Shown one piece after another: positions 6,478 through 29,024 of a DNA stretch of 64,000 nt. This DNA comes from an uncultured Prolixibacteraceae bacterium. GTDB lineage: Bacteria; Bacteroidota; Bacteroidia; Bacteroidales; FEN-979. The position numbers and the translations under genes were made by a program. A model generated the notes under the pieces. It was not told where the DNA came from. It saw nothing but the letters and a program-made list of their open reading frames with translations, and ran no database searches. The stretch's first letter is position 1; each line of letters begins with the position of its first letter. The DNA lies in contig CAYYPH010000019.1 in assembly GCA_964473485.1 (NCBI GenBank), positions 2,668 through 66,667 of the forward strand, in the 5' to 3' direction.

Positions 6478-6530
6478 GTAAAATACGACGAAATGCGTAT
6501 TGACCGGCCAGTTAGAGGGTAATACCTTTG
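6478..6530 (+). promoter_or_regulatory. Box A operator-promoter, copy 1 (upstream of beta-helix/HK1)
   Basis: GTAAAATACGACGAAATGCGTATTGAC contains the dyad AATACG-N8-CGTATT. It is followed after 18 nt by TACCTTTG (TAnnTTTG -7 box) at 6523, with the ATG at 6556. Confidence 0.55.
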
Positions 6531-6555
6531 GTACAGAAATTAAATCACCTGATCC

Positions 6556-9417
6556 ATGAAAACCATTCTGATGGTTGCCGTTATTGGCCTGTTGGCCGCA
6601 GCAACACAGGCTCAGATCATCCACATTCCCGATGATTATCCCACCATCCAGCAAGGGATCGATGCTACAAATAATGGGGATACCGTTCTTGTATCACCCG
6701 GAACCTATGTTGAAGGCATCTCTTTTAACGGGAAGAATATTACCGTTGCCTCTCTGGTCCTGACTACCCAGGATACCTCATACATTTCCAGGACCATCAT
6801 CGACGGCAACCAGTATGGCTTTGTTGTTGCATTCTGGCAGGAGGAAGATATTACGGCAATCCTTTGCGGATTCACCATTAAAAATGGAAATGGCGGGATT
6901 TATTGTGACCATTCCAGCCCTACCCTGTGCAACCTGATCATCAGGGAAAATTCGACTCCTGTGGGTGGTTGGGGACCTTCGCCGGGTGGTGCAGGTATAA
7001 GTTGCATCAATGCAAATCCAGTGATTAAAGATGTCATCATTACAAATAATACGTGTTCGGTTTTCGGAGGTGGGATGTCCTGCAGGCAAAACTCCTATCC
7101 TTTTCTGTCAAACATAACCATCAAGCATAACACATCTCATTCACAGGGGGGAGGGATCTTTTGCAGTGGATCCGCCCCTGTTTTTGATACCCTGAACCGT
7201 TGCAATATTTTTAATAATAGCGCATTGGAAGGGAATGACCTCTATACCGACACGTTGCTGGCTGTTACTGTAGATACCTTTAGCGTTGGGAATCCCACCG
7301 ACTTCCATGCTGCCCCTATTGCCGACTTTTCGTTCAAAATCCTGCACGGAAGGTCGGTTCAGGTAAATGCCGACCTCTATGTATCGCCCGGAGGGGATGA
7401 CAATAACAGCGGCCTTACTGCTGCAGATCCACTTAAGTCGGTTCAGTATGCCTTTTCAATCATCCGGGCCGATAGCCTGAACCGGAACACGGTCCGCCTG
7501 CTCGAAGGAATATATACTCCTTTTTCCTGTCCCGGTCTTTTTCCTCTGGACGTTCCGGATTATATTGATTTGAAAGGTGTCTCCAGAACAGCAGTCATCC
7601 TTGATGCCAAAGACGCTTCAAGGGTTCTCCAGGTAATGGACAATACATCCAATCATATTTCAGGCATGACCATTACCGGAGGATATATTTTGGGTTGCGG
7701 CGGGGGTGGGATCCTCTGCGATCAATCAAAACCCGTTTTCGAAGATTTGATTATAACCGGGAATACGGCCCAGGCAGGAGGCATCGGGATGAATATTTGC
7801 GGTATAGGTGGAGGAGGGATTCTTTGCCTTGACTCCGATCCTATTTTCAAGGATGTGATCGTTACCGGGAATTATTCTTTCATGGAAGTTGATGGATCCA
7901 CCGGTTTATTTGGAGGCCATGGAGGAGGATTGTATTTTAAAAATTCAACCCCCTTATTGCAAAATGTAACAGTAACTGCCAATGGAGCCTCATATCATGG
8001 CGGGGGCATCAGTTTCATGGGATCAGAACCACGGTTCGACTCCATCAATCGTTGTAACATATACGGCAACGTGGCATCAGGTCATCCTGGTCAGTTTGGC
8101 GGCAGCGACCTCTATGCCGATACCTTCATTGAACTTGTTGTAGATACTTTTACAGTAAGCGTTCCCAATGCGTTTCATGCACTCCCGCTAAGCAACTTCT
8201 CCTTCGACATTATCCATGGGTTACATCAGCAAATCAGCGCCAACCTCTATATTTCACCCTGGGGAGATAACCGGAACAGCGGATTGACACCGGGTGAACC
8301 CCTCAGGAACATCCAATGCGCGTTCTCTTTCATGCAATCCGACAGTCTGAATCCGCGTACGATCCATCTGCTTGAAGGCACTTACAGCAGGATGAACAGC
8401 GGGGAATTTTACCCGCTCAGGCTCCCCGGATATACCAGTATCGAAGGGATCTCTCAACAATCGGTCATCCTGGATGCCGACAGTACAAAATATGAGGCCA
8501 TTCAACTTATAAACAGTCCGGGTGTTCGTATTACAGGGATAACAATTAATGGTGGGTCGCATCATATCGGAAGCTCCACGGGTATAACCTCTTACAATGC
8601 AAATCCTTCCATCCGGGATGTCATTTTTTCAAACAATACCCTTGGAATAAACTGCTTATTTTCAGATCTGGCCCTTGAAAACGTGATCATTTCCAGCGAT
8701 GATGCTTCAAACGGGGGAAGTGGTATTTATTGTGGCTATTTTCCTTCCTCAGATAAAATCAGCCTGAAAAATGTTACAATGGTCAATGCAAGGCCTACCA
8801 GCGGTTATGCCATTTCCGGTGCGGGAGCAAATACCATGATCGTGAATTCCATTCTCAGGAATCACATTCCCTATGAAATCATTGGAGGCACTCCTGTTGT
8901 CAATTATTCGAATGTAGAGGGAGGGTGGCCGGGAGAAGGCAATATAGATGCCGACCCTCTTTTTGATACAACTGGCATCTATCCATTGGCATTAAGAAAC
9001 GGGTCTCCCTGCATCAATGCCGGCACGCCTGATACAACAGGTTATAATTTCCCGCTTACTGACCTTGCAGGAAATCCAAGAATATGGGGAGGAAGAATTG
9101 ATATGGGGGCGTATGAGTGGAATAATGTGGGGAGTGCAGAAATTCGATTTCCGAATTATGAATTACAAGTAAAGAATTTTCCGAACCCAACAAGTCAATC
9201 AACCTCTATCTCTTATAACCTCAAAGAATCAGGGAATGTGACAATCCGGGTGTTCGACAGCTACGGACAGTTCGTTGAAAAACCTTTGAGCGCTCATCAG
9301 GCAAAGGGCGAGCAGCAAGTGCCCTGGGATGCCGGGAACCTGCCGGCAGGGATATATTTCTATCGGATACAGGCCGGGAGGGAAGTGGGAGGAGGAAAGA
9401 TACTGTTAGTGAAATGA
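6556..9417 (+). CDS. Secreted right-handed beta-helix repeat protein with T9SS C-terminal sorting domain
   Basis: Signal peptide MKTILMVAVIGLLAAATQAQ and repeated N-x-G-G-G-I beta-helix turns. Has the DADPLF...GSPCINAG...GNPR...DMGAYE module and the tail FPNPTSQSTSISY...LPAGIYFYRIQ...KILLVK. Confidence 0.75.
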   Translation: MKTILMVAVIGLLAAATQAQIIHIPDDYPTIQQGIDATNNGDTVLVSPGTYVEGISFNGKNITVASLVLTTQDTSYISRTIIDGNQYGFVVAFWQEEDITAILCGFTIKNGNGGIYCDHSSPTLCNLIIRENSTPVGGWGPSPGGAGISCINANPVIKDVIITNNTCSVFGGGMSCRQNSYPFLSNITIKHNTSHSQGGGIFCSGSAPVFDTLNRCNIFNNSALEGNDLYTDTLLAVTVDTFSVGNPTDFHAAPIADFSFKILHGRSVQVNADLYVSPGGDDNNSGLTAADPLKSVQYAFSIIRADSLNRNTVRLLEGIYTPFSCPGLFPLDVPDYIDLKGVSRTAVILDAKDASRVLQVMDNTSNHISGMTITGGYILGCGGGGILCDQSKPVFEDLIITGNTAQAGGIGMNICGIGGGGILCLDSDPIFKDVIVTGNYSFMEVDGSTGLFGGHGGGLYFKNSTPLLQNVTVTANGASYHGGGISFMGSEPRFDSINRCNIYGNVASGHPGQFGGSDLYADTFIELVVDTFTVSVPNAFHALPLSNFSFDIIHGLHQQISANLYISPWGDNRNSGLTPGEPLRNIQCAFSFMQSDSLNPRTIHLLEGTYSRMNSGEFYPLRLPGYTSIEGISQQSVILDADSTKYEAIQLINSPGVRITGITINGGSHHIGSSTGITSYNANPSIRDVIFSNNTLGINCLFSDLALENVIISSDDASNGGSGIYCGYFPSSDKISLKNVTMVNARPTSGYAISGAGANTMIVNSILRNHIPYEIIGGTPVVNYSNVEGGWPGEGNIDADPLFDTTGIYPLALRNGSPCINAGTPDTTGYNFPLTDLAGNPRIWGGRIDMGAYEWNNVGSAEIRFPNYELQVKNFPNPTSQSTSISYNLKESGNVTIRVFDSYGQFVEKPLSAHQAKGEQQVPWDAGNLPAGIYFYRIQAGREVGGGKILLVK

Positions 9418-9504
9418 GTTCCCAGTTTCATCAAGAAATTTTCTGACAGAAGGGTGACCGCCTCTAAAATCGACCTATCTTTATATCGCTATTCCCTTCT
9501 TTTC

Positions 9505-11817
9505 ATGACCACTTTGAAGCAAGCCATCGCGAGGATCCCTTTTTGGGCTTACTTGGTTGTACTTGTATCAATGTTTGTGAACACCGTGTACTTTGTATTT
9601 ACATACGCGGCAATCGTTGTTTATTCAGAATCTCCCGTCACTCCGGTGTTTTCCTGGGCGGTGTACCTTACAACCATTCTGTTTGGTACCGGCAGTCTCT
9701 ATCTTCTATACAAAAAGCCTGGTGATCGCCCGGTCAGGATTTTCTTTTTCTACGTACAGTTTTTTGTAATTATGATCAATGCAGGAAACCTTTTTGTGCT
9801 GAATCCTTTGATCAATATTGTGAATATTGTCTTCCATACAACCTGTTTTATTGGTTCAGTTCTAATCAGTTTCCATCTCGTATTTCCGAAAACGGTAAAA
9901 TATTACAACACATTAAGGAGCGTTTCATGGATCATCTATGTATTTACCACAATAGTTGTTAGTTGTTATTCAGCAAGTTATATTTACTCTGTTTATAATG
10001 AATTAACGCCTGACTCCTTTTTTTTCGTTGCTGAACGAATCGCTTTATGGTGGCTCACATTAACTTATATAGGTGCCTTGGCAATTGCTGTTTACCAGTA
10101 TGCTACTTTGAAAGACACACTCTTAAAAAACCAGGTGTTCATTGTCTGTATAGGATCTCTTTTCGGATTAATCACACCAATGTGCCTGGCTTTGTTCTAT
10201 GATTTTATCCTTCCTTTAACTTTTAAAAATCCCAATCCAATTGTTATTTCCCAAGGTATTTGCAGTTTAATCACCATCTGCTGCATCCTCACCGCCATCT
10301 TCCGTTACCGCATCTGGGATATCGAGGTCGTCATCCGGAAAGCCTTGCTGTACCTGGGAGCCACCGCCATCATCATCTTGTCGTACCTCTTCCTGGTCTG
10401 GCTCATTGATCAGTTCACGGCCGGAGCCACCGATCTGATCCGCTTTGCCGCCCTGGGCATTTCCGTAATCCTCTTCCTCGTTCTCCGCGACCGCATCCAG
10501 CGGCTGATCGACCGGATCTTTCACCGCGAGACCTACGACTCTGCCACGGTAGTATCCGATTTTGAAGCAAAACTGGCGGGGATTTACAGGTTTGATGAGT
10601 TGAAACAGAAAATTGTCCAGAGTCTTGATGAGATCTTCCATTTTAAATCCTTTGTTTTTAACCTGAAGAAAAACAACCAGATCTATGAACCCGCTTATGC
10701 TTTAGGGATCGATGATACGGACATTCCAGCAGAATATGAGATCTCCGCCGAAATTGAAGACAGACTCAGGAAATCAAAGGTCTTTTCCCCTCAAGAGTTG
10801 AATGTGACGTCCCCTGTGCTTGAAACGATCAAAGGAGACCTCATTGTTCCGATGGTATCCGAAGGTCAACCGGAAGGGTTTTTTATCTGCGGACAGAAAA
10901 AGTCGGAGCGGATCTATTCCCGGCAGGACATCAACGTGCTCTCATTGCTTGCGAGAAGAGTGGTTGCCATGCTTCATACCGCCAGCCTTTACCAGAAAGA
11001 TCTTGACCGCCAACTGATGCTTGAACGTGAACGCGCCCGCATCGCCCAGGACATGCACGACGACATCGGCGCGGGACTGACAAAAATCGCCATGATCAGC
11101 GAAGCGCCTGTTCAAGTTCCCGGTCAGCAGTCACTTACTGCAAACTTACTCTCAGATCGCTTGAAGAAGATTGCAACATCTTCCCGCGACATGATCTCCC
11201 GCCTGAACGTGATCGTCTGGGCGCTGAATCCCCGGTATGACAATCTTGAAAGCCTGGTCAGCTATCTTCGGAGATATTTCGGGGAATACCTTGAAAACTT
11301 CGGAATTCAATTCAGCACCGGATTTCTGGAAGAGGTACCCGAACGTGCCATCACACCCGACACCCGGCGTAACATCTTCTATATCATTCAGGAGGCCATT
11401 CACAATGCGGTCAAGCACAGCGGCTGCACAGAGATCGGCCTTGACATTGCATTCTACTCCGGGTCGCCGCACAATTCCACGGGCTTTAAACTTCAATCCC
11501 CCCTTGAAACCAATGACTGCACTTCCCTGCCACGCCATAATACCAATGACCTCATGCCACCACTGCATCACACGACCGGTGACTCCCTCACACTACAACC
11601 TCCTCGCCCTGAAGGAGAGGGGAAGAAGGAAAAGAGGCGCTATACCTTAACCTTCATCATCATCGACAACGGTAAGGGATTTGACCAGGTCAAAACCGGT
11701 TCCGGCGGAAACGGTCTGCTGAACATGAAAAAGCGGGCGGAGGAACTGTCGGGGACTTGCGAAGTTCAAAGTTCACCGGGGAAAGGGACCAAAATTACAG
11801 TACGGGTAAACATTTAA
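9505..11817 (+). CDS. Sensor histidine kinase HK1: multi-pass membrane, GAF-like, HisKA_3, HATPase_c (no PDZ)
   Basis: The start is trimmed to MTTLKQAIARIPFWAYL by analogy with the paralog N-termini. H-box ERERARIAQDMHDDIGAGL, N-box EAIHNAVKHS, G-box DNGKGFD...GNGLLNMKKR. Has a long insertion between the N and G1 boxes. Confidence 0.85.
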   Translation: MTTLKQAIARIPFWAYLVVLVSMFVNTVYFVFTYAAIVVYSESPVTPVFSWAVYLTTILFGTGSLYLLYKKPGDRPVRIFFFYVQFFVIMINAGNLFVLNPLINIVNIVFHTTCFIGSVLISFHLVFPKTVKYYNTLRSVSWIIYVFTTIVVSCYSASYIYSVYNELTPDSFFFVAERIALWWLTLTYIGALAIAVYQYATLKDTLLKNQVFIVCIGSLFGLITPMCLALFYDFILPLTFKNPNPIVISQGICSLITICCILTAIFRYRIWDIEVVIRKALLYLGATAIIILSYLFLVWLIDQFTAGATDLIRFAALGISVILFLVLRDRIQRLIDRIFHRETYDSATVVSDFEAKLAGIYRFDELKQKIVQSLDEIFHFKSFVFNLKKNNQIYEPAYALGIDDTDIPAEYEISAEIEDRLRKSKVFSPQELNVTSPVLETIKGDLIVPMVSEGQPEGFFICGQKKSERIYSRQDINVLSLLARRVVAMLHTASLYQKDLDRQLMLERERARIAQDMHDDIGAGLTKIAMISEAPVQVPGQQSLTANLLSDRLKKIATSSRDMISRLNVIVWALNPRYDNLESLVSYLRRYFGEYLENFGIQFSTGFLEEVPERAITPDTRRNIFYIIQEAIHNAVKHSGCTEIGLDIAFYSGSPHNSTGFKLQSPLETNDCTSLPRHNTNDLMPPLHHTTGDSLTLQPPRPEGEGKKEKRRYTLTFIIIDNGKGFDQVKTGSGGNGLLNMKKRAEELSGTCEVQSSPGKGTKITVRVNI

Positions 11818-11904
11818 TTTTTTTCGACTGTGTTCGAAATCAACTGTGATCGAAATGTTACCGTTAACTCCAAAGGGTTTGGCTTTGCCTGGTTGCCTCT
11901 TATT

Positions 11905-11957
11905 GTGAAATACGACGAAATGCGTATTGACGGAGACCTGCTTTCTTATTACTTTTG
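11905..11957 (+). promoter_or_regulatory. Box A operator-promoter, copy 2 (upstream of RR1)
   Basis: GTGAAATACGACGAAATGCGTATTGAC matches copy 1 at 26 of 27 nt. It is followed after 18 nt by TACTTTTG at 11950. The RR1 ATG is at 11962, so the mRNA is leaderless or uses the ATG at 11992. Confidence 0.55.
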
Positions 11958-11961
11958 AATC

Positions 11962-12603
11962 ATGCCAGGATCATCAGGTAAAATCAAAATCATGATCGTC
12001 GAAGACGACCGGGAGATGCGGGAAGGGCTGGAACTGATCGTCCGCTCAAATCCGGCCCTGGAATGCATTGGATCCTGTTCCTCGGGAGAGGAGGCGGTCG
12101 AAACCATTCCGGATCATGTACCCGACATTGTTCTGATGGACATTCACCTTCCCGGGCTCTCGGGAATTGATTGCGTAAAGCAGTTAAAACCACTCATGCC
12201 GTTCACACAGTTCATGATGTGCACGGTATACGAAGATAATGAAAACGTCTTTGATTCACTCTGCGCGGGAGCTACCGGCTACCTGTTGAAAAACAGCCCT
12301 CCGTCAAAAATAACGGAGGCCATCGTCGACCTCTACCAGGGCGGTTCTCCCATGTCTTCAGTCATCGCGCGGAAAGTGATCCAGACCTTTATTCCCGCCC
12401 CTGAAAAGAGCAGCGAAATTGAAAAACTGACCGTTCGGGAGCGGGAACTGCTCGACCTGCTTTCGAAAGGATATCGTTACAAAGAGATCGCCGACAGGCT
12501 TGGCATCAGCTTTGAGACCGTCCGCACACACATCCACAACATTTACGAGAAACTGCATGTACAGTCGAGGACCGAGGCGCTGAACAAGATCTATCCCAGA
12601 TAA
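11962..12603 (+). CDS. NarL/FixJ (LuxR-type HTH) response regulator RR1
   Basis: Receiver IMIVEDDREMREGL...[12 protein letters not shown] and HTH LTVRERELLDLLSKGYRYKEIADRLGISFETVRTHIHNIYEKL. The start could instead be the ATG at 11992 if the adjacent -7 box is the promoter. Confidence 0.9.
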   Translation: MPGSSGKIKIMIVEDDREMREGLELIVRSNPALECIGSCSSGEEAVETIPDHVPDIVLMDIHLPGLSGIDCVKQLKPLMPFTQFMMCTVYEDNENVFDSLCAGATGYLLKNSPPSKITEAIVDLYQGGSPMSSVIARKVIQTFIPAPEKSSEIEKLTVRERELLDLLSKGYRYKEIADRLGISFETVRTHIHNIYEKLHVQSRTEALNKIYPR

Positions 12604-12706: not shown

Positions 12707-15079
12707 ATGGGCAACCTGAGGCATTCGCTCCGCCGGATTCCCTATTGGGCCTACCTGCTCGTGCTGGCAGTTATCGGCATAAACACCGCCTGGCTGATTT
12801 ACCGGGGCAGGATACCGCTAGGAGGAGCGACCCTGAAGATGGAACAGGGATATTACATCCACGATTTTGTAAATCCACGGGGTTCAGTATACGAAGCGGG
12901 AATACGCCCCGGAGACACACTTGTTTCGATGGATGCTGTTGCCATTGAAAAATGGCAATATAACCTGAAGACAGGAGATACCGTGATTGCAGGGATTCTA
13001 AGGAATGGCAAAGAAACTGCAATGCCCGTGATCATAGATTCCATCCACTCATATGCCCCCTGGTTTTTCTGGTCCGTCTACATCATTGTGATACTTGTCA
13101 CCATCGGGAGCCTCTGGTTGCTGTATAAAAAACCAAATGATAAATCGGCAGTGTTATTTTTTATCGTTATTCAAATGTTCATGATTGTGATAAATGCAAT
13201 CAGTTATCAGGATAATGCTCCTTTGGGAATGATTGCCGTGTTTGCGTTTCATTTTAGCAGTTGCTTTATAGGTACGGCGCTGATCCATTTTCACCTGCTT
13301 TTCCCAAAACCTGCAACGTTTTTCAACCAGGGTAAAAGATGGCTTATTTTATTCTATATACTGAGCTTCATACTACTGACCGCTTATTTTACGTCCTATT
13401 ACTTTCTTCACTATCCTGGGTTTATGACCGGAAAATACTATGGGCTATTTGACAGGATCGTTGTGTCGTGGATGACGCTGACTTTCTTATTGGCGTTAGT
13501 TGTTGCCGTATTTCAATTCCGGACAATAAAAGACACCCTTTCGCGTAACCAGTTACGTCTCGTAATAACAGGTTCAGCGTTCGGCTTTATAGGCCCCGCG
13601 GCTTTTTCACTGTTTTATAAAAGTGTCGGCGATATTTCAGCGAAGTATCCCCTGATGGTGCCTGTTTCCCAGGGAACTGCGACCATGATCCTGATCTGCT
13701 GCATCCTGGTCGCCATCTTCCGTTACCGGATCTGGGATATTGAAATCTTTATCCGCAGGGCAATGCTTTACCTGGGAGCGACAATGGTCATCATGTTGTC
13801 GTATTTGTTGCTTCTTTACCTTGTCGATCTGTTTACGCTCCGTGAATCAAGTCTCACCCGATTTGTGATGCTGGCGCTTTCGGTCATCATTTTCCTGGCG
13901 GTCAGGGATTGGCTCCAGCGTATGTTAGAAAGAGTGTTTTTCAGGGAAAAGTATGATCCGACCACCGTTGTTTCCCGATTTGAAGAGAAGCTTGCCGGCA
14001 TATACAGGGCCGATGAGCTTAAATCAGGCATCGTAATGAGAATGGATGAGATATTTCATTTTTCGCACATCGCATTTCTCTTGAAAAAAAATGAACTTGT
14101 TTATGAAACGGTATTTTCGGCAGGACTTGATCATCAGAGAGTGAAAGGCGAATTTATGGTCACCCGGGAGCTGGAGAACAGGCTTCAGAAGCAGAAAGTA
14201 TTTACTCCGGGCGAAATGGAACAAATGCCTGTTTTCATTGAAGAAACCCATGCTGAACTGGTGGTTCCGGTGCTGAAAGATGAACACCCTTTCGGGTTTT
14301 TTCTTTGCGGACCAAAGAAATCGGAGAAACCCTATTCCATGCAGGACATCCGGCTCCTTTCGCTGATCGCCAGGCGGGTCAACGCATTGTTCCATACGGC
14401 GGCACTCTATCAGAAAGACCTCGACCGTCAGCTCATGCTCGAACGCGAACGAGCAAGGATTTCGCAGGACATGCACGACGATATCGGGGCCAGCCTTACC
14501 CGGATCTCTATGATGAGCGATCTGGTCAATAACAGGACCGATGTCGGGGATGGTGCCAGGCAATGGTTGGCGAAGATCAGCAACGCATCACGGGGATTGA
14601 TGGAAGAGATGAACCAGATCATCTGGGCACTGAATCCAAGGAACGATAACCTCGAAGGACTCGTAACATACATTCGTCGTTTCGCATTCGAATACCTGGA
14701 ACCTACAACGGTGGACTGTGTTTTCGATCTCCCGGCAGAGATGCCGCACCTGGCCCTGAGCGTGGAGGTACGCAGGAATGTTTACCTTGTATCCCGCGAA
14801 GCCGTTCACAACGTTGTGAAGCATTCAGGAGCCACCAAGGTGGTGATTACGTTCACCCCCCAAACCCCTCTCTGTGAAGGAGAAAGATGGGGGGAGGAAA
14901 GGTCGTTTAAAATCTCCATTCACGACAACGGGAAAGGATTTGATCCCGGGAAGTTCGAATTTCAGGGGAATGGGCTGATCAATATGAAGAAGAGAATGCA
15001 TGAAATAGGTGGAGCATTGGTGATTCACTCCATCATTGGCAGGGGAACGGAAATCGAACTGGAAGTGCCTGTGAGATAA
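12707..15079 (+). CDS. Sensor histidine kinase HK2: TM1, PDZ, ~9 TM, GAF-like, HisKA_3, HATPase_c
   Basis: PDZ-like GIRPGDTLVSMDAVAIEKW...GDTVIAGILRNGKE lies between TM1 and TM2. H-box ERERARISQDMHDDIGASL, EAVHNVVKHS, DNGKGFD...GNGLINMKKR. Confidence 0.85.
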   Translation: MGNLRHSLRRIPYWAYLLVLAVIGINTAWLIYRGRIPLGGATLKMEQGYYIHDFVNPRGSVYEAGIRPGDTLVSMDAVAIEKWQYNLKTGDTVIAGILRNGKETAMPVIIDSIHSYAPWFFWSVYIIVILVTIGSLWLLYKKPNDKSAVLFFIVIQMFMIVINAISYQDNAPLGMIAVFAFHFSSCFIGTALIHFHLLFPKPATFFNQGKRWLILFYILSFILLTAYFTSYYFLHYPGFMTGKYYGLFDRIVVSWMTLTFLLALVVAVFQFRTIKDTLSRNQLRLVITGSAFGFIGPAAFSLFYKSVGDISAKYPLMVPVSQGTATMILICCILVAIFRYRIWDIEIFIRRAMLYLGATMVIMLSYLLLLYLVDLFTLRESSLTRFVMLALSVIIFLAVRDWLQRMLERVFFREKYDPTTVVSRFEEKLAGIYRADELKSGIVMRMDEIFHFSHIAFLLKKNELVYETVFSAGLDHQRVKGEFMVTRELENRLQKQKVFTPGEMEQMPVFIEETHAELVVPVLKDEHPFGFFLCGPKKSEKPYSMQDIRLLSLIARRVNALFHTAALYQKDLDRQLMLERERARISQDMHDDIGASLTRISMMSDLVNNRTDVGDGARQWLAKISNASRGLMEEMNQIIWALNPRNDNLEGLVTYIRRFAFEYLEPTTVDCVFDLPAEMPHLALSVEVRRNVYLVSREAVHNVVKHSGATKVVITFTPQTPLCEGERWGEERSFKISIHDNGKGFDPGKFEFQGNGLINMKKRMHEIGGALVIHSIIGRGTEIELEVPVR

Positions 15080-15143
15080 CACTGCACCGCATTTCATGTG
15101 AATGGGCAGCCAGGCTCCCGGTAACCATTTCAGCACAATGTGA

Positions 15144-15190
15144 TAACACGAAAAGGGGATACCTTTTAGCAATTCTTCGTTGTACTTTAG
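15144..15190 (+). promoter_or_regulatory. Box C operator-promoter, copy 1 (upstream of RR2)
   Basis: TAACACGAAAAGGGGATACC, then TACTTTAG at 15183, 39 nt from the hexamer. The -7 box deviates at position 7. GATACCTTTT inside the box is an alternative -7. Confidence 0.4.
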
Positions 15191-15207: not shown

Positions 15208-15861
15208 ATGTCAGAAACATTCAAATTACCCGGTAATCCCATCCGGATTGCGGTGGTGGAAGACGATAAAATGGTCAGGGAAGTGCTGGAGATTCTTCTC
15301 AGCGGTTCTCCCGGGTTTACGTGTGCCGCAGCCTATGAAGACGGTGAATCCGCTCTCGCCGGCCTCCCGGAAGTGAGTCCCAACGTTGTATTAATGGACA
15401 TCCACCTGCCGGGCATCAGCGGTATCGAATGCATAACAAGGCTTAAAGCGATGAATCTGTCAATGTTGTTCATCATGCTGACCATCTTTGAAGATTCCGA
15501 TGCCGTGTTTCATTCGCTGGCTGCAGGTGCATCCGGGTACCTGGTTAAACAAACCCCGCCGGCAAAATTGCTTGAAGCCATCCAGGATGTTTACCTTGGC
15601 GGTTCGCCCATGTCGCGGGAAATTGCCCGAAAAGTAGTTCAATCCTTCCAACACCCGGTTACAGCAGCCGATCCTGATATCAACCTGACCAAACGGGAAG
15701 ACGAAATCCTGTTATACCTTGTAAAAGGGATGCTGTACAAGGAGATAGCCGCTTTATTGTCCATCAGCGTGGAAACCGTCCGAACACACCTCCGTCATAT
15801 CTACGAAAAACTCCAGGTACGTACACGCAGCGAGGCCATCGTAAAGTATCTTACAAAATAA
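15208..15861 (+). CDS. NarL/FixJ (LuxR-type HTH) response regulator RR2
   Basis: [14 protein letters not shown]...[12 protein letters not shown]; [46 protein letters not shown]. Confidence 0.9.
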
Positions 15862-16036: not shown

Positions 16037-16084
16037 TAACACCAAATGGGGATTGACTTACTCGTTTCTGTAATCGTACATTTG
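16037..16084 (+). promoter_or_regulatory. Box C operator-promoter, copy 2 (upstream of Ycf48-like copy 1)
   Basis: TAACACCAAATGGGGATTGAC, then TACATTTG at 16077, 40 nt from the hexamer. Confidence 0.45.
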
Positions 16085-28370: not shown

Positions 28371-29024
28371 ATGAAATACACGGGAAATGAATATACAGAA
28401 CCTATCCGGATTGCCCTGGTAGAAGATGATAAAACCGTCAGGGAAGGATTGCAGATGCTCCTCAATGGCTCCCCCGGATTCACCTGCGTGGCTGCATACA
28501 ACAGCGGGGAAGATGCCCTTGCAGGGATTCCTGATATGCTGCCGGAAGTGACGCTTATGGACATCAACCTTCCCGGCATCAACGGTATCGAATGTATACT
28601 TAAGCTCAAGGAACAGCAATTACCCATTCTCTTCATCATGCTGACGGTTTTCGAAGACGCCGACGCCATCTTCCGGTCGCTTTCAGCAGGTGCATGCGGA
28701 TATTTACTCAAACATACCCCACCCGCAAAACTGCTGGAAGCCATCCAGGATGTCTACCGGGGCGGTTCTCCCATGTCGGGGGAGATCGCACGAAAGGTGG
28801 TTCAGTCATTTCAGCAGGTACCCGCAAAAAACCATGACCAGGCCAACCTGACGAAACGGGAAGAGGAGATCCTCAACCTCCTGTCGCAAGGATATTTTTA
28901 CAAAGAGATCGCCCATTCTCTTTCCATCAGCGTCGAAACCGTCCGCACCCACATTCGCAACATCTACGAAAAGCTACAGGTCAGGACCCGGACGGAGGCA
29001 ATTCTGAAGTACTTGGGAAAGTAG
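28371..29024 (+). CDS. NarL/FixJ (LuxR-type HTH) response regulator RR3
   Basis: IALVEDDKTVREGL...TLMDINLPGING; [46 protein letters not shown]. By eye about 70% identical to RR2. Confidence 0.9.
   Translation: MKYTGNEYTEPIRIALVEDDKTVREGLQMLLNGSPGFTCVAAYNSGEDALAGIPDMLPEVTLMDINLPGINGIECILKLKEQQLPILFIMLTVFEDADAIFRSLSAGACGYLLKHTPPAKLLEAIQDVYRGGSPMSGEIARKVVQSFQQVPAKNHDQANLTKREEEILNLLSQGYFYKEIAHSLSISVETVRTHIRNIYEKLQVRTRTEAILKYLGK

What the first reader, a model, noticed from the sequence alone, without database searches (positions are those of the whole stretch)
6478..6530. Box A: a 27-nt element with a perfect dyad, duplicated in front of the beta-helix/HK1 operon and RR1
GTRAAATACGACGAAATGCGTATTGAC occurs at 6478..6504 and 11905..11931 and is identical at 26 of 27 nt. 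It contains AATACG-N8-CGTATT. In both copies it lies exactly 18 nt upstream of a TAnnTTTG box (TACCTTTG, TACTTTTG).

In the RR1 copy the -7 box ends 5 nt before the annotated ATG. RR1 is therefore either leaderless or starts at the ATG at 11992 (MIVEDD...).
Basis: seen in the sequence. Interest (0 to 1): 0.6.

Follow-up and report, generated by a model that had tools for sequence, protein, structure and literature searches.

The report
Operator site of response regulator RR1
Box A is very probably the DNA-binding site of the neighbouring NarL/LuxR-type response regulator RR1, placed in front of RR1's own gene and one secreted-protein/kinase operon; this is an ordinary kind of bacterial switch, though the layout (site, promoter, start codon with no leader) recurs across the phylum Bacteroidota.

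Summary
The 27-nt Box A occurs at 6478-6504 and 11905-11931 (26/27 identical) and nowhere else in the 5.03-Mb genome. Its flanks are unrelated, and each copy lies 18 nt before a TAnnTTTG -7 box.

By the published Bacteroidota promoter rule, the predicted starts are 6535 and 11962. That puts the dyad centre at -43.5 in both promoters and the TTG of TATTGAC at -35 to -33.

Upstream regions of 47 RR1 homologues were aligned on the -7 box alone. Conservation appears only at -53 to -33 (nnnnnnAC-W4-GTnnnATTG) and at the -7 box. In 27 of the 47, the -7 box ends 3-7 nt before the ATG.

So Box A is a DosR/NarL-type 20-bp operator, most likely bound by RR1 to activate its own leaderless gene (start at 11962, not 11992) and the beta-helix/HK1 operon. 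The paralogues RR2 and RR3 have their own boxes in the same layout. An earlier report of this scan reached the same reading for RR3's box, on another part of this window.

The closest orthologues carry a different right arm. The match between box type and helix type cannot be separated from shared ancestry.

Verdict: real and functional, but a new member of a known kind.

The parts
6478..6504 (+). Box A copy 1 (27 nt). The dyad AATACG-N8-CGTATT is at 6482-6501, or AATACGAC-GAAA-TGCGTATT in 8-4-8 notation. Predicted centre is -43.5.
6500..6502 (+). TTG of TATTGAC, falling at -35 to -33. This is the -33 element of the Bacteroidota sigma-A promoter and overlaps the promoter-proximal arm of the box.
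   Evidence: -33/-7 rule from PMC6847099 and PMC7366714; G conserved at -33 in 29 of 47 homologues
6523..6530 (+). -7 box TACCTTTG of the beta-helix/HK1 promoter. The predicted transcription start is about 6535, giving a 21-nt leader.
   Evidence: TAHHTTTG enrichment in this genome; 4-5 nt from box to start
6556..9417 (+). Target gene 1: a 953-aa secreted beta-helix protein with a signal peptide and a T9SS C-terminal sorting domain.
9454..11817 (+). HK1, a membrane HisKA_3 histidine kinase. It starts 36 nt after the beta-helix gene and is probably co-transcribed with it (inferred).
11905..11931 (+). Box A copy 2 (27 nt), with the dyad at 11909-11928. Predicted centre is -43.5 relative to 11962.
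11950..11957 (+). -7 box TACTTTTG of the RR1 promoter, with 4 nt before the ATG.
11962..12603 (+). RR1, a 213-aa NarL/FixJ-family response regulator (receiver plus GerE helix-turn-helix). Its mRNA is predicted to be leaderless, starting at the A of ATG 11962.
12707..15079 (+). HK2, a HisKA_3 kinase 44% identical to HK1. It lies downstream of RR1 and is probably in the same transcript (inferred).

Best explanation
Box A is the operator of RR1, a NarL/FixJ-family (LuxR-type helix-turn-helix) response regulator. After phosphorylation by HK1 and/or HK2, an RR1 dimer binds the 20-bp site AATACGAC-GAAA-TGCGTATT. The site is centred at about -43.5 and its proximal arm overlaps the -33 TTG of a Bacteroidota sigma-A promoter. 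From there RR1 activates transcription in a class-II-like way, as NarL does at yeaR. The regulon has two promoters. One drives a T9SS-secreted beta-helix protein plus HK1. The other drives RR1 itself (plus HK2), giving positive feedback. The RR1 transcript starts at the A of its ATG (11962) and is leaderless.

Shown here: the sequence and its uniqueness, the fixed geometry, conservation of the layout in homologues, and the family assignment of RR1 and the kinases. Inferred: that RR1 is the binding protein, that binding activates, the exact start sites, and the operon structure.
For: 1. There are only two copies in 5.03 Mb, both in promoter position, with unrelated flanks and old paralogy of the kinases.
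2. RR1 has receiver and GerE domains. Its best solved relatives are DevR/DosR, VraR and NarL. The adjacent kinases are HisKA_3, the NarX-type partner class.
3. Aligned on the -7 box alone, 47 RR1 homologue promoters show information only at -53 to -33 (peaks AC at -47/-46, GT at -41/-40, A-T-.-G at -36 to -33) and at the -7 box, and none from -32 to -13.
4. This 8-4-8 layout with an AC-W4-GT core matches the DosR consensus TTSGGGACTWWAGTCCCSAA (PMC2275270).
5. In the same genome RR3's own box occurs at four promoters (RR3 plus three T9SS cargo genes). RR2 and a paralogue on contig C1 have their own boxes in the same 21-nt register.
6. In other genomes, AATACG-N8-CGTATT followed by 20-22 nt and TAnnTTTG gives 10 hits in 401 genomes of the order, against 0 for the reversed control. 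The hits lie before signal-peptide genes, and three of them sit directly after a HisKA_3 kinase plus LuxR-type regulator pair. L041 has a box-A-like TATACAAC-GAAA-TGCGTATT between the RR1 orthologue (77% identical) and a Kelch gene.
7. Geometry: the G of the -7 box sits at -5 and the start follows 4-5 nt later (PMC6847099), which centres the dyad at -43.5. That is the position of the NarL dimer in the yeaR activation complex (PMC10853779).
8. Leaderless start: this genome has a sharp spike of 27 genes with the -7 box exactly 4 nt before the ATG. 18 of 47 homologues have 3-5 nt.
Against: The closest orthologues (G008, G026, L041-L043) have an identical recognition helix but carry GGGKGATT instead of TGCGTATT as the right arm, so the perfect dyad is not conserved and the right arm may be read loosely. 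The regulators next to AATACG-N8-CGTATT sites in G037 and G277 belong to another subfamily (GTVRKHIENIY), so these arms do not map uniquely to the RR1-type helix. The association between helix class and box class rests on only 1-3 independent contrasts. A site that overlaps the -33 element could repress rather than activate.
Confidence: 0.7

Rival explanations
1. Box A is bound by RR1 but acts as a repressor site. Occupying the -33 region blocks sigma-A, giving negative autoregulation and repression of the beta-helix/HK1 operon.
For: The proximal arm overlaps the TTG at -35 to -33. NarL-family proteins are known to repress at some promoters (established knowledge).
Against: A centre at -43.5 is the activating position for NarL at yeaR. 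The fixed 21-nt register to the -7 box across 47 homologues fits a precise contact with RNA polymerase better than simple occlusion. Several related sites have no TTG after the box, for example G037, which suggests activator-dependent promoters.
Confidence: 0.13
2. Box A is the site of a different DNA-binding protein, such as another NarL-type paralogue (RR2, RR3, or the regulators on contigs C30 or C1) or an unrelated dimeric regulator. RR1 would be a target, not the binder.
For: Regulators of another subfamily sit beside the same AATACG/CGTATT arms in G037 and G277. The helix-box association is not independent of phylogeny.
Against: Each paralogue in this genome has its own distinct box at its own promoter. 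The box travels with the RR1-type gene in many families. The site layout matches the DosR-type box of RR1's own protein family.
Confidence: 0.1
3. Box A has no regulatory role. It would be a copied promoter fragment kept alike by gene conversion, a small repeat, or an RNA hairpin or terminator.
For: The two copies are more alike (26/27, including the spacer) than binding alone would require. The dyad can form a 6-bp hairpin.
Against: There are only two copies genome-wide. The hairpin is weak (z = -2.2 and -1.6) with no U-tract, and there is no Rfam match. It lies upstream of the predicted starts. The same positions are conserved in distant homologues.
Confidence: 0.04

Closest known systems
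DosR/DevR box of Mycobacterium tuberculosis (TTSGGGACTWWAGTCCCSAA)
   Same: It is a 20-bp palindrome laid out 8-4-8 with an AC-W4-GT centre. It is bound by a NarL/FixJ-family response regulator, and DevR is RR1's best solved relative (3c3w, E 9e-31). The regulator is autoregulated (from general knowledge of the DosR literature, not checked here).
   Different: The arm sequences differ (AATACGAC versus TTSGGGAC). Box A's right arm starts TG, not GT. The promoter context is a Bacteroidota -33/-7 promoter. The targets are T9SS cargo genes rather than hypoxia genes. The RR1 mRNA is leaderless.
E. coli NarX/NarL with 7-2-7 sites, e.g. the yeaR promoter
   Same: A HisKA_3 kinase is paired with a NarL-type regulator. 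An inverted repeat centred at -43.5 lies just upstream of, or overlapping, the -35 region, and a single dimer suffices for activation (PMC10853779). The A/T-rich centre of the site lies where the alpha-CTD contacts the minor groove in the NarL complex.
   Different: The site is 16 bp (7-2-7) against 20 bp (8-4-8). The sigma factor and promoter elements differ. Whether Bacteroidota RNA polymerase makes comparable alpha-CTD contacts is unknown.
Box B / RR3 operator in the same window (earlier finding e1-3620167)
   Same: It has the same architecture and the same 21-nt register to a -7 box. It sits at the regulator's own promoter and at neighbouring T9SS cargo promoters.
   Different: The arm sequence differs (AWTACTAC-TWWT-TGGTGAT). 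It has four copies rather than two. The RR3 mRNA has a leader of about 12 nt, whereas RR1's has none.
lux box / LuxR-type activators (20-bp palindrome at about -42.5)
   Same: A 20-bp dyad overlaps the -35 region and is bound by a GerE-type helix-turn-helix dimer (established knowledge).
   Different: LuxR is controlled by a ligand, not by phosphorylation, and it is not a two-component regulator.

Membership tests
Operator of a NarL/FixJ (LuxR-type HTH) two-component response regulator | A cognate regulator with receiver plus GerE/LuxR helix-turn-helix is encoded at the locus | tested here: met
   RR1 matches Response_reg at 1.7e-22 and GerE at 1.2e-16. Best solved relatives are DevR, VraR and NarL. 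It matches the NarL and MctR models below their equivalog cut-offs.
Operator of a NarL/FixJ (LuxR-type HTH) two-component response regulator | Partner kinase of the HisKA_3 (NarX-type) class | tested here: met
   HK1 and HK2 both match HisKA_3 and HATPase_c.
Operator of a NarL/FixJ (LuxR-type HTH) two-component response regulator | Inverted repeat of 16-20 bp with an A/T-rich centre | tested here: met
   The site is AATACG-N8-CGTATT, or AATACGAC-GAAA-TGCGTATT. The family consensus ..AC-W4-GT.. matches the DosR layout.
Operator of a NarL/FixJ (LuxR-type HTH) two-component response regulator | Conserved position in orthologous and paralogous promoters, with non-conserved flanks | tested here: met
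   In 47 homologue promoters anchored on the -7 box alone, information is confined to -53 to -33 and the -7 box.
Operator of a NarL/FixJ (LuxR-type HTH) two-component response regulator | Co-variation of the recognition helix with the site, independent of ancestry | tested here: inconclusive
   The association table is striking (RQ with TAAC in 15 of 16, RK with xCAC in 6 of 6, RT with C[AG]AC), but there are only 1-3 independent pairs (sign test p 0.5-1). The closest orthologues have the same helix but a different right arm.
Operator of a NarL/FixJ (LuxR-type HTH) two-component response regulator | Direct binding by the regulator and an effect on transcription | not testable with these tools
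   This needs gel-shift, footprint or DAP-seq assays and reporter fusions.
Bacteroidota sigma-A (-33/-7) promoter | A TAnnTTTG -7 box, used genome-wide by this organism | tested here: met
   The boxes are TACCTTTG and TACTTTTG. TAHHTTTG gives 882 hits against 160 control hits upstream of 3406 crude genes, peaking 11-40 nt before the ATG.
Bacteroidota sigma-A (-33/-7) promoter | A TTG or TTTG element near -33 | tested here: met
   The TTG of TATTGAC lies at -35 to -33 in both copies. G at -33 is found in 29 of 47 homologues.
Bacteroidota sigma-A (-33/-7) promoter | A mapped transcription start 4-5 nt after the box | not testable with these tools
The starts at 6535 and 11962 are predicted from the rule in PMC6847099.
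Leaderless mRNA | The start codon lies at the predicted transcription start | tested here: met
   4 nt separate the -7 box from ATG 11962. The genome shows a spike of 27 genes at exactly this distance. 18 of 47 homologues have 3-5 nt. The 5' end itself is not mapped.
Dispersed repeat (REP or MITE-like) | Many copies scattered in the genome without promoter bias | tested here: not met
   There are two copies, and the next best match has 8 mismatches. One-mismatch dyad hits equal the control.
Intrinsic terminator or structured RNA | A stable G+C-rich hairpin with a U-tract, or a match to a known RNA family | tested here: not met
   Folding energies are -10.6 and -6.9 kcal/mol (z -2.2 and -1.6) with no U-tract. 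There is no Rfam match at E up to 1.

The most novel reading that the evidence does not exclude
Box A is one instance of a phylum-wide portable cassette in Bacteroidota. The cassette is a DosR-type 8-4-8 operator, 21 nt of spacer, a -7 box, and often a start codon 3-5 nt later, so the regulator mRNA is leaderless. It travels with one family of NarL-type regulator genes. Operator arms and recognition helix have diversified together, giving insulated paralogous circuits (three side by side in this window), each controlling its own small set of T9SS-secreted proteins. The conserved leaderless start would then be a functional feature of these autoregulatory loops in a phylum where leaderless mRNAs are rare (3.7-5.5%).
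Probability: 0.45. Interest if true: 0.55.

Novelty: new member of a known kind. Interest (0 to 1): 0.38.

Why it matters
Very few regulator binding sites are known for environmental Bacteroidota, and little is known about how individual T9SS cargo genes are switched on. This finding gives a concrete, testable operator, a two-promoter regulon and a predicted leaderless start for an uncultured Bacteroidales bacterium. It also gives a simple rule (box, 21 nt, -7 box) that finds the sites of related regulators in many genomes. That rule could seed regulon prediction for this two-component family. It also offers a natural set of presumably non-cross-reacting operator/regulator pairs for genetic tools in Bacteroidota. 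The mechanism itself, an autoregulated NarL-type activator with a palindromic site near -43.5, is textbook.

Tried and rejected
- **Dispersed repeat:** rejected by whole-genome scans.
- **Recent segmental duplication:** rejected because the flanks do not align and HK1/HK2 are 44% identical.
- **RNA hairpin, terminator or known RNA family:** rejected.
- **Further RR1 targets through half-sites in register with a -7 box:** only the two known sites appeared, plus a chance hit before ruvB on contig C86.
- **Footprint within the genus:** only 2 of 39 congeneric genomes (G008, G026) carry an RR1 orthologue recognisable at DNA level. Their boxes share the left arm and the TTGAC or TTG end but not the right arm. 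A second copy of their box type was not found.
- **Formal co-evolution test of helix against box:** too few independent contrasts.
- **Literature searches** for a described Bacteroidota NarL-type operator, or for regulation of T9SS cargo by such systems: these returned only PorX/PorY/SigP and unrelated work.
- **Shared divergent DUF4143 ATPase gene here and in L091:** this is not synteny, since the two proteins are only 24% identical.

Full report
**1. Observation**

The two copies read GTAAAATACGACGAAATGCGTATTGAC (6478-6504) and GTGAAATACGACGAAATGCGTATTGAC (11905-11931). They are identical at 26 of 27 positions and both contain AATACG-N8-CGTATT. Each copy is followed after 18 nt by a TAnnTTTG box: TACCTTTG at 6523-6530 and TACTTTTG at 11950-11957. 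In the second copy only AATC separates that box from the ATG at 11962.

No shuffle of the window gave a match. In the organism's own 5.03-Mb assembly (100 contigs, 50% G+C) these are the only two copies. The next best 27-mer has 8 mismatches, and one-mismatch dyad matches equal the reversed-pattern control. Apart from the box and the -7 box, the two upstream regions do not align. The kinases on either side, HK1 and HK2, are only 44% identical. The identity is therefore not left over from a recent duplication.

**2. Context**

The window comes from an uncultured Bacteroidales bacterium, judging by the record titles of the closest relatives. From 6.5 to 33 kb it carries a row of modules. These are made of T9SS-secreted proteins (beta-helix, BNR/Ycf48-like, Kelch, M28 peptidase, Fib_succ_major), four HisKA_3 kinases and three NarL/LuxR-type regulators: RR1 at 11962-12603, RR2 at 15208-15861 and RR3 at 28371-29024.

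Box A precedes two units:
- the 953-aa beta-helix T9SS protein, followed 36 nt later by HK1;
- RR1, followed by HK2.

RR1's best solved relatives are DevR/DosR, VraR and NarL. It does not reach the cut-off of any NCBIfam equivalog.

**3. Promoter geometry**

This genome uses the Bacteroidota -7 box. TAHHTTTG occurs 882 times in the 150 nt upstream of 3406 crude gene calls, against 160 for a reversed control. The main peak is 11-40 nt before the ATG, with a separate sharp spike at exactly 4 nt (27 genes).

In Flavobacterium johnsoniae the box occupies -12 to -5 and the transcript starts 4-5 nt after it (PMC6847099). Applied here, the predicted starts are about 6535 (a 21-nt leader, typical for the phylum) and 11962, the A of the RR1 start codon. 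In both promoters the dyad centre then falls at -43.5, and the TTG of TATTGAC falls at -35 to -33, the place of the -33 element. These start sites are predictions.

**4. Comparative evidence**

*Same site in other genomes.* A search of 401 genomes of the order for AATACG-N8-CGTATT, 20-22 nt, then TAnnTTTG gave 10 hits in 7 genomes, against none for the reversed control.
- The hits outside this genome precede genes that open with a signal peptide.
- In G037, two sites with the same 21-nt register lie directly downstream of a TPR-HisKA_3 kinase plus LuxR-type regulator pair. One precedes a T9SS cargo gene and the other a row of unannotated genes.
- In G277, one site lies directly after a HisKA_3 kinase plus regulator pair.

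*RR1 homologues.* RR1 homologues were fetched from named genomes, and their upstream regions were aligned on the -7 box alone, without using the dyad.
- In 47 promoters from Bacteroidales, Chitinophagaceae, Sphingobacteriales and others, information content rises only at -53 to -33 and at the -7 box. The peaks are AC at -47/-46, GT at -41/-40 and A-T-.-G at -36 to -33. Positions -32 to -13 are uninformative.
- The family consensus is nnnnnnAC-W4-GTnnnATTG. This is the same 8-4-8 layout and AC-W4-GT centre as the DosR box TTSGGGACTWWAGTCCCSAA.
- The arms differ between clades: TATAAC/GTTATA in Chitinophagaceae, and AATACCAC/GTGTAATT, AATACGAC/GTCGTATT and others elsewhere. L091 holds a perfect palindrome, AATACGAC-TAAA-GTCGTATT.
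- L041 (the RR is 77% identical to RR1) has a box before the regulator gene and a second one, TATACAAC-GAAA-TGCGTATT, between the regulator and a Kelch-repeat gene.

*Paralogues in this genome.*
- RR3's box AWTACTAC-TWWT-TGGTGAT occurs four times: before RR3 and before three cargo genes. This independently reproduces earlier finding e1-3620167.
- RR2 has GATAACAC-GAAA-AGGGGATA in the same register.
- A paralogue on contig C1 has TCACCC-GAAC-GGGTGA, then 21 nt, then TAATTTGC.

Three regulators side by side thus each have their own operator class, at their own promoter and at neighbouring cargo promoters.

**5. The RR1 start**

Three lines of evidence favour the ATG at 11962, and so a leaderless mRNA, over the ATG at 11992.
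- The distance from the -7 box to the ATG is 3-7 nt in 27 of 47 homologues, 3-5 nt in 18, and exactly 4 nt in 11.
- Solved regulators and homologues align from RR1 residue 7-8 (IKIMIVEDD). No homologue has an N-terminus as short as MIVEDD.
- Leaderless mRNAs make up only 3.7-5.5% of transcripts in the two Bacteroidota with mapped starts. The recurrence in this gene family is therefore not a background property.

**6. Mechanism**

The best reading is that phosphorylated RR1 binds Box A as a dimer and activates both promoters. The position, -43.5, is that of the NarL dimer in the cryo-EM activation complex on yeaR. There the alpha-CTD sits in the minor groove at the centre of the site (PMC10853779). 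The centre of the boxes found here is always A/T-rich (GAAA, AAAA, TTTT, TAAA), which would fit such a contact. This last point is inference only.

The result would be positive feedback on RR1, HK1 and HK2, together with induction of one secreted beta-helix protein. No further credible targets exist in the assembly.

**7. Weak points**

- Nothing here shows binding, and nothing shows the sign of regulation.
- The closest orthologues (G008, G026, L041-L043) have the same recognition helix (ISFETVRTHIHNIYEKLHVQSRTEALNK) but the right arm GGGKGATT. The perfect 6-nt dyad is therefore specific to this genome's two sites, which may have been homogenised. RR1-type proteins seem to tolerate two kinds of right arm.
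- The regulators beside the AATACG/CGTATT sites of G037 and G277 belong to another subfamily.
- The table of helix class against arm class is striking. On a receiver-domain tree, however, it reduces to 1-3 independent contrasts, so it cannot be told apart from shared ancestry.
- Alternative readings are given as rivals. An RNA hairpin, a known RNA family and a dispersed repeat are excluded.

**8. Novelty**

Searches of the held literature found no description of this operator or of NarL-type control of T9SS cargo genes; they returned only PorX/PorY/SigP and unrelated systems. The kind of element is nevertheless well known.

I file it as a new member of a known kind, in line with the earlier report on Box B in this window. 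The part that goes beyond an ordinary regulon is the phylum-wide cassette of operator, 21 nt, -7 box and leaderless ATG, with clade-specific arms.

Noticed in passing
window 11827-11856: A 14-nt direct repeat, ACTGTGTTCGAAAT (11827-11840) and ACTGTGATCGAAAT (11843-11856), 13 of 14 identical with a 16-nt period. It lies between the HK1 stop codon and Box A copy 2. It could be a second regulator site or part of the local short-repeat family.
   Followed up: no
window 20798, 22210, 28305, 30465 (each about 22 nt): RR3's own box AWTACTACTWWTTGGTGAT occurs four times, each 19-21 nt before a TAnnTT(T/A)G box. The copies lie upstream of the Fib_succ_major gene, a T9SS cargo gene, RR3 itself and a BNR T9SS gene. 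This is the same as earlier finding e1-3620167.
   Followed up: partly
window 15142-15163 and about 16037-16059: RR2 is preceded by GATAACAC-GAAA-AGGGGATACC, then 20 nt, then TACTTTAG. A similar TGTAACAC-CAAA-TGGGGATTGAC lies before the BNR/Ycf48-like gene, about 22 nt upstream of TACATTTG. It resembles the box of RR1 orthologues in G008 and L042.
   Followed up: partly
G000 contig C1, about 443,820-443,890: A fifth NarL-type paralogue (38% identical to RR1) is preceded by the perfect dyad TCACCC-GAAC-GGGTGA, then 21 nt, then TAATTTGC, then 8 nt, then the ATG. This is the same cassette elsewhere in the genome.
   Followed up: no
whole genome G000: There is a distinct class of about 27 crude gene calls with TAHHTTTG exactly 4 nt before the ATG (11 more at 5 nt). 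This is a sharp spike, separate from the main 11-40 nt peak, and suggests a defined set of leaderless genes. The set includes ruvB on contig C86, at 5 nt.
   Followed up: partly
window about 11440-11580 (HK1 residues about 664-708): Relative to HK2, HK1 carries an insertion of about 45 residues inside the ATPase domain (FYSGSPHNSTGFKLQSPLETNDCTSLPRHNTNDLMPPLHHTT...), seen as a gap in the pairwise alignment.
   Followed up: no
L040 (G277:C9), upstream of the response-regulator gene: Inside the kinase-regulator operon of G277, the regulator gene is preceded by a single arm ATCGTATT, then 21 nt, then TAGCTTTG, then 5 nt, then the ATG. This looks like an internal, probably leaderless promoter with half an operator. 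It suggests the cassette also exists in a second NarL-type subfamily.
   Followed up: no
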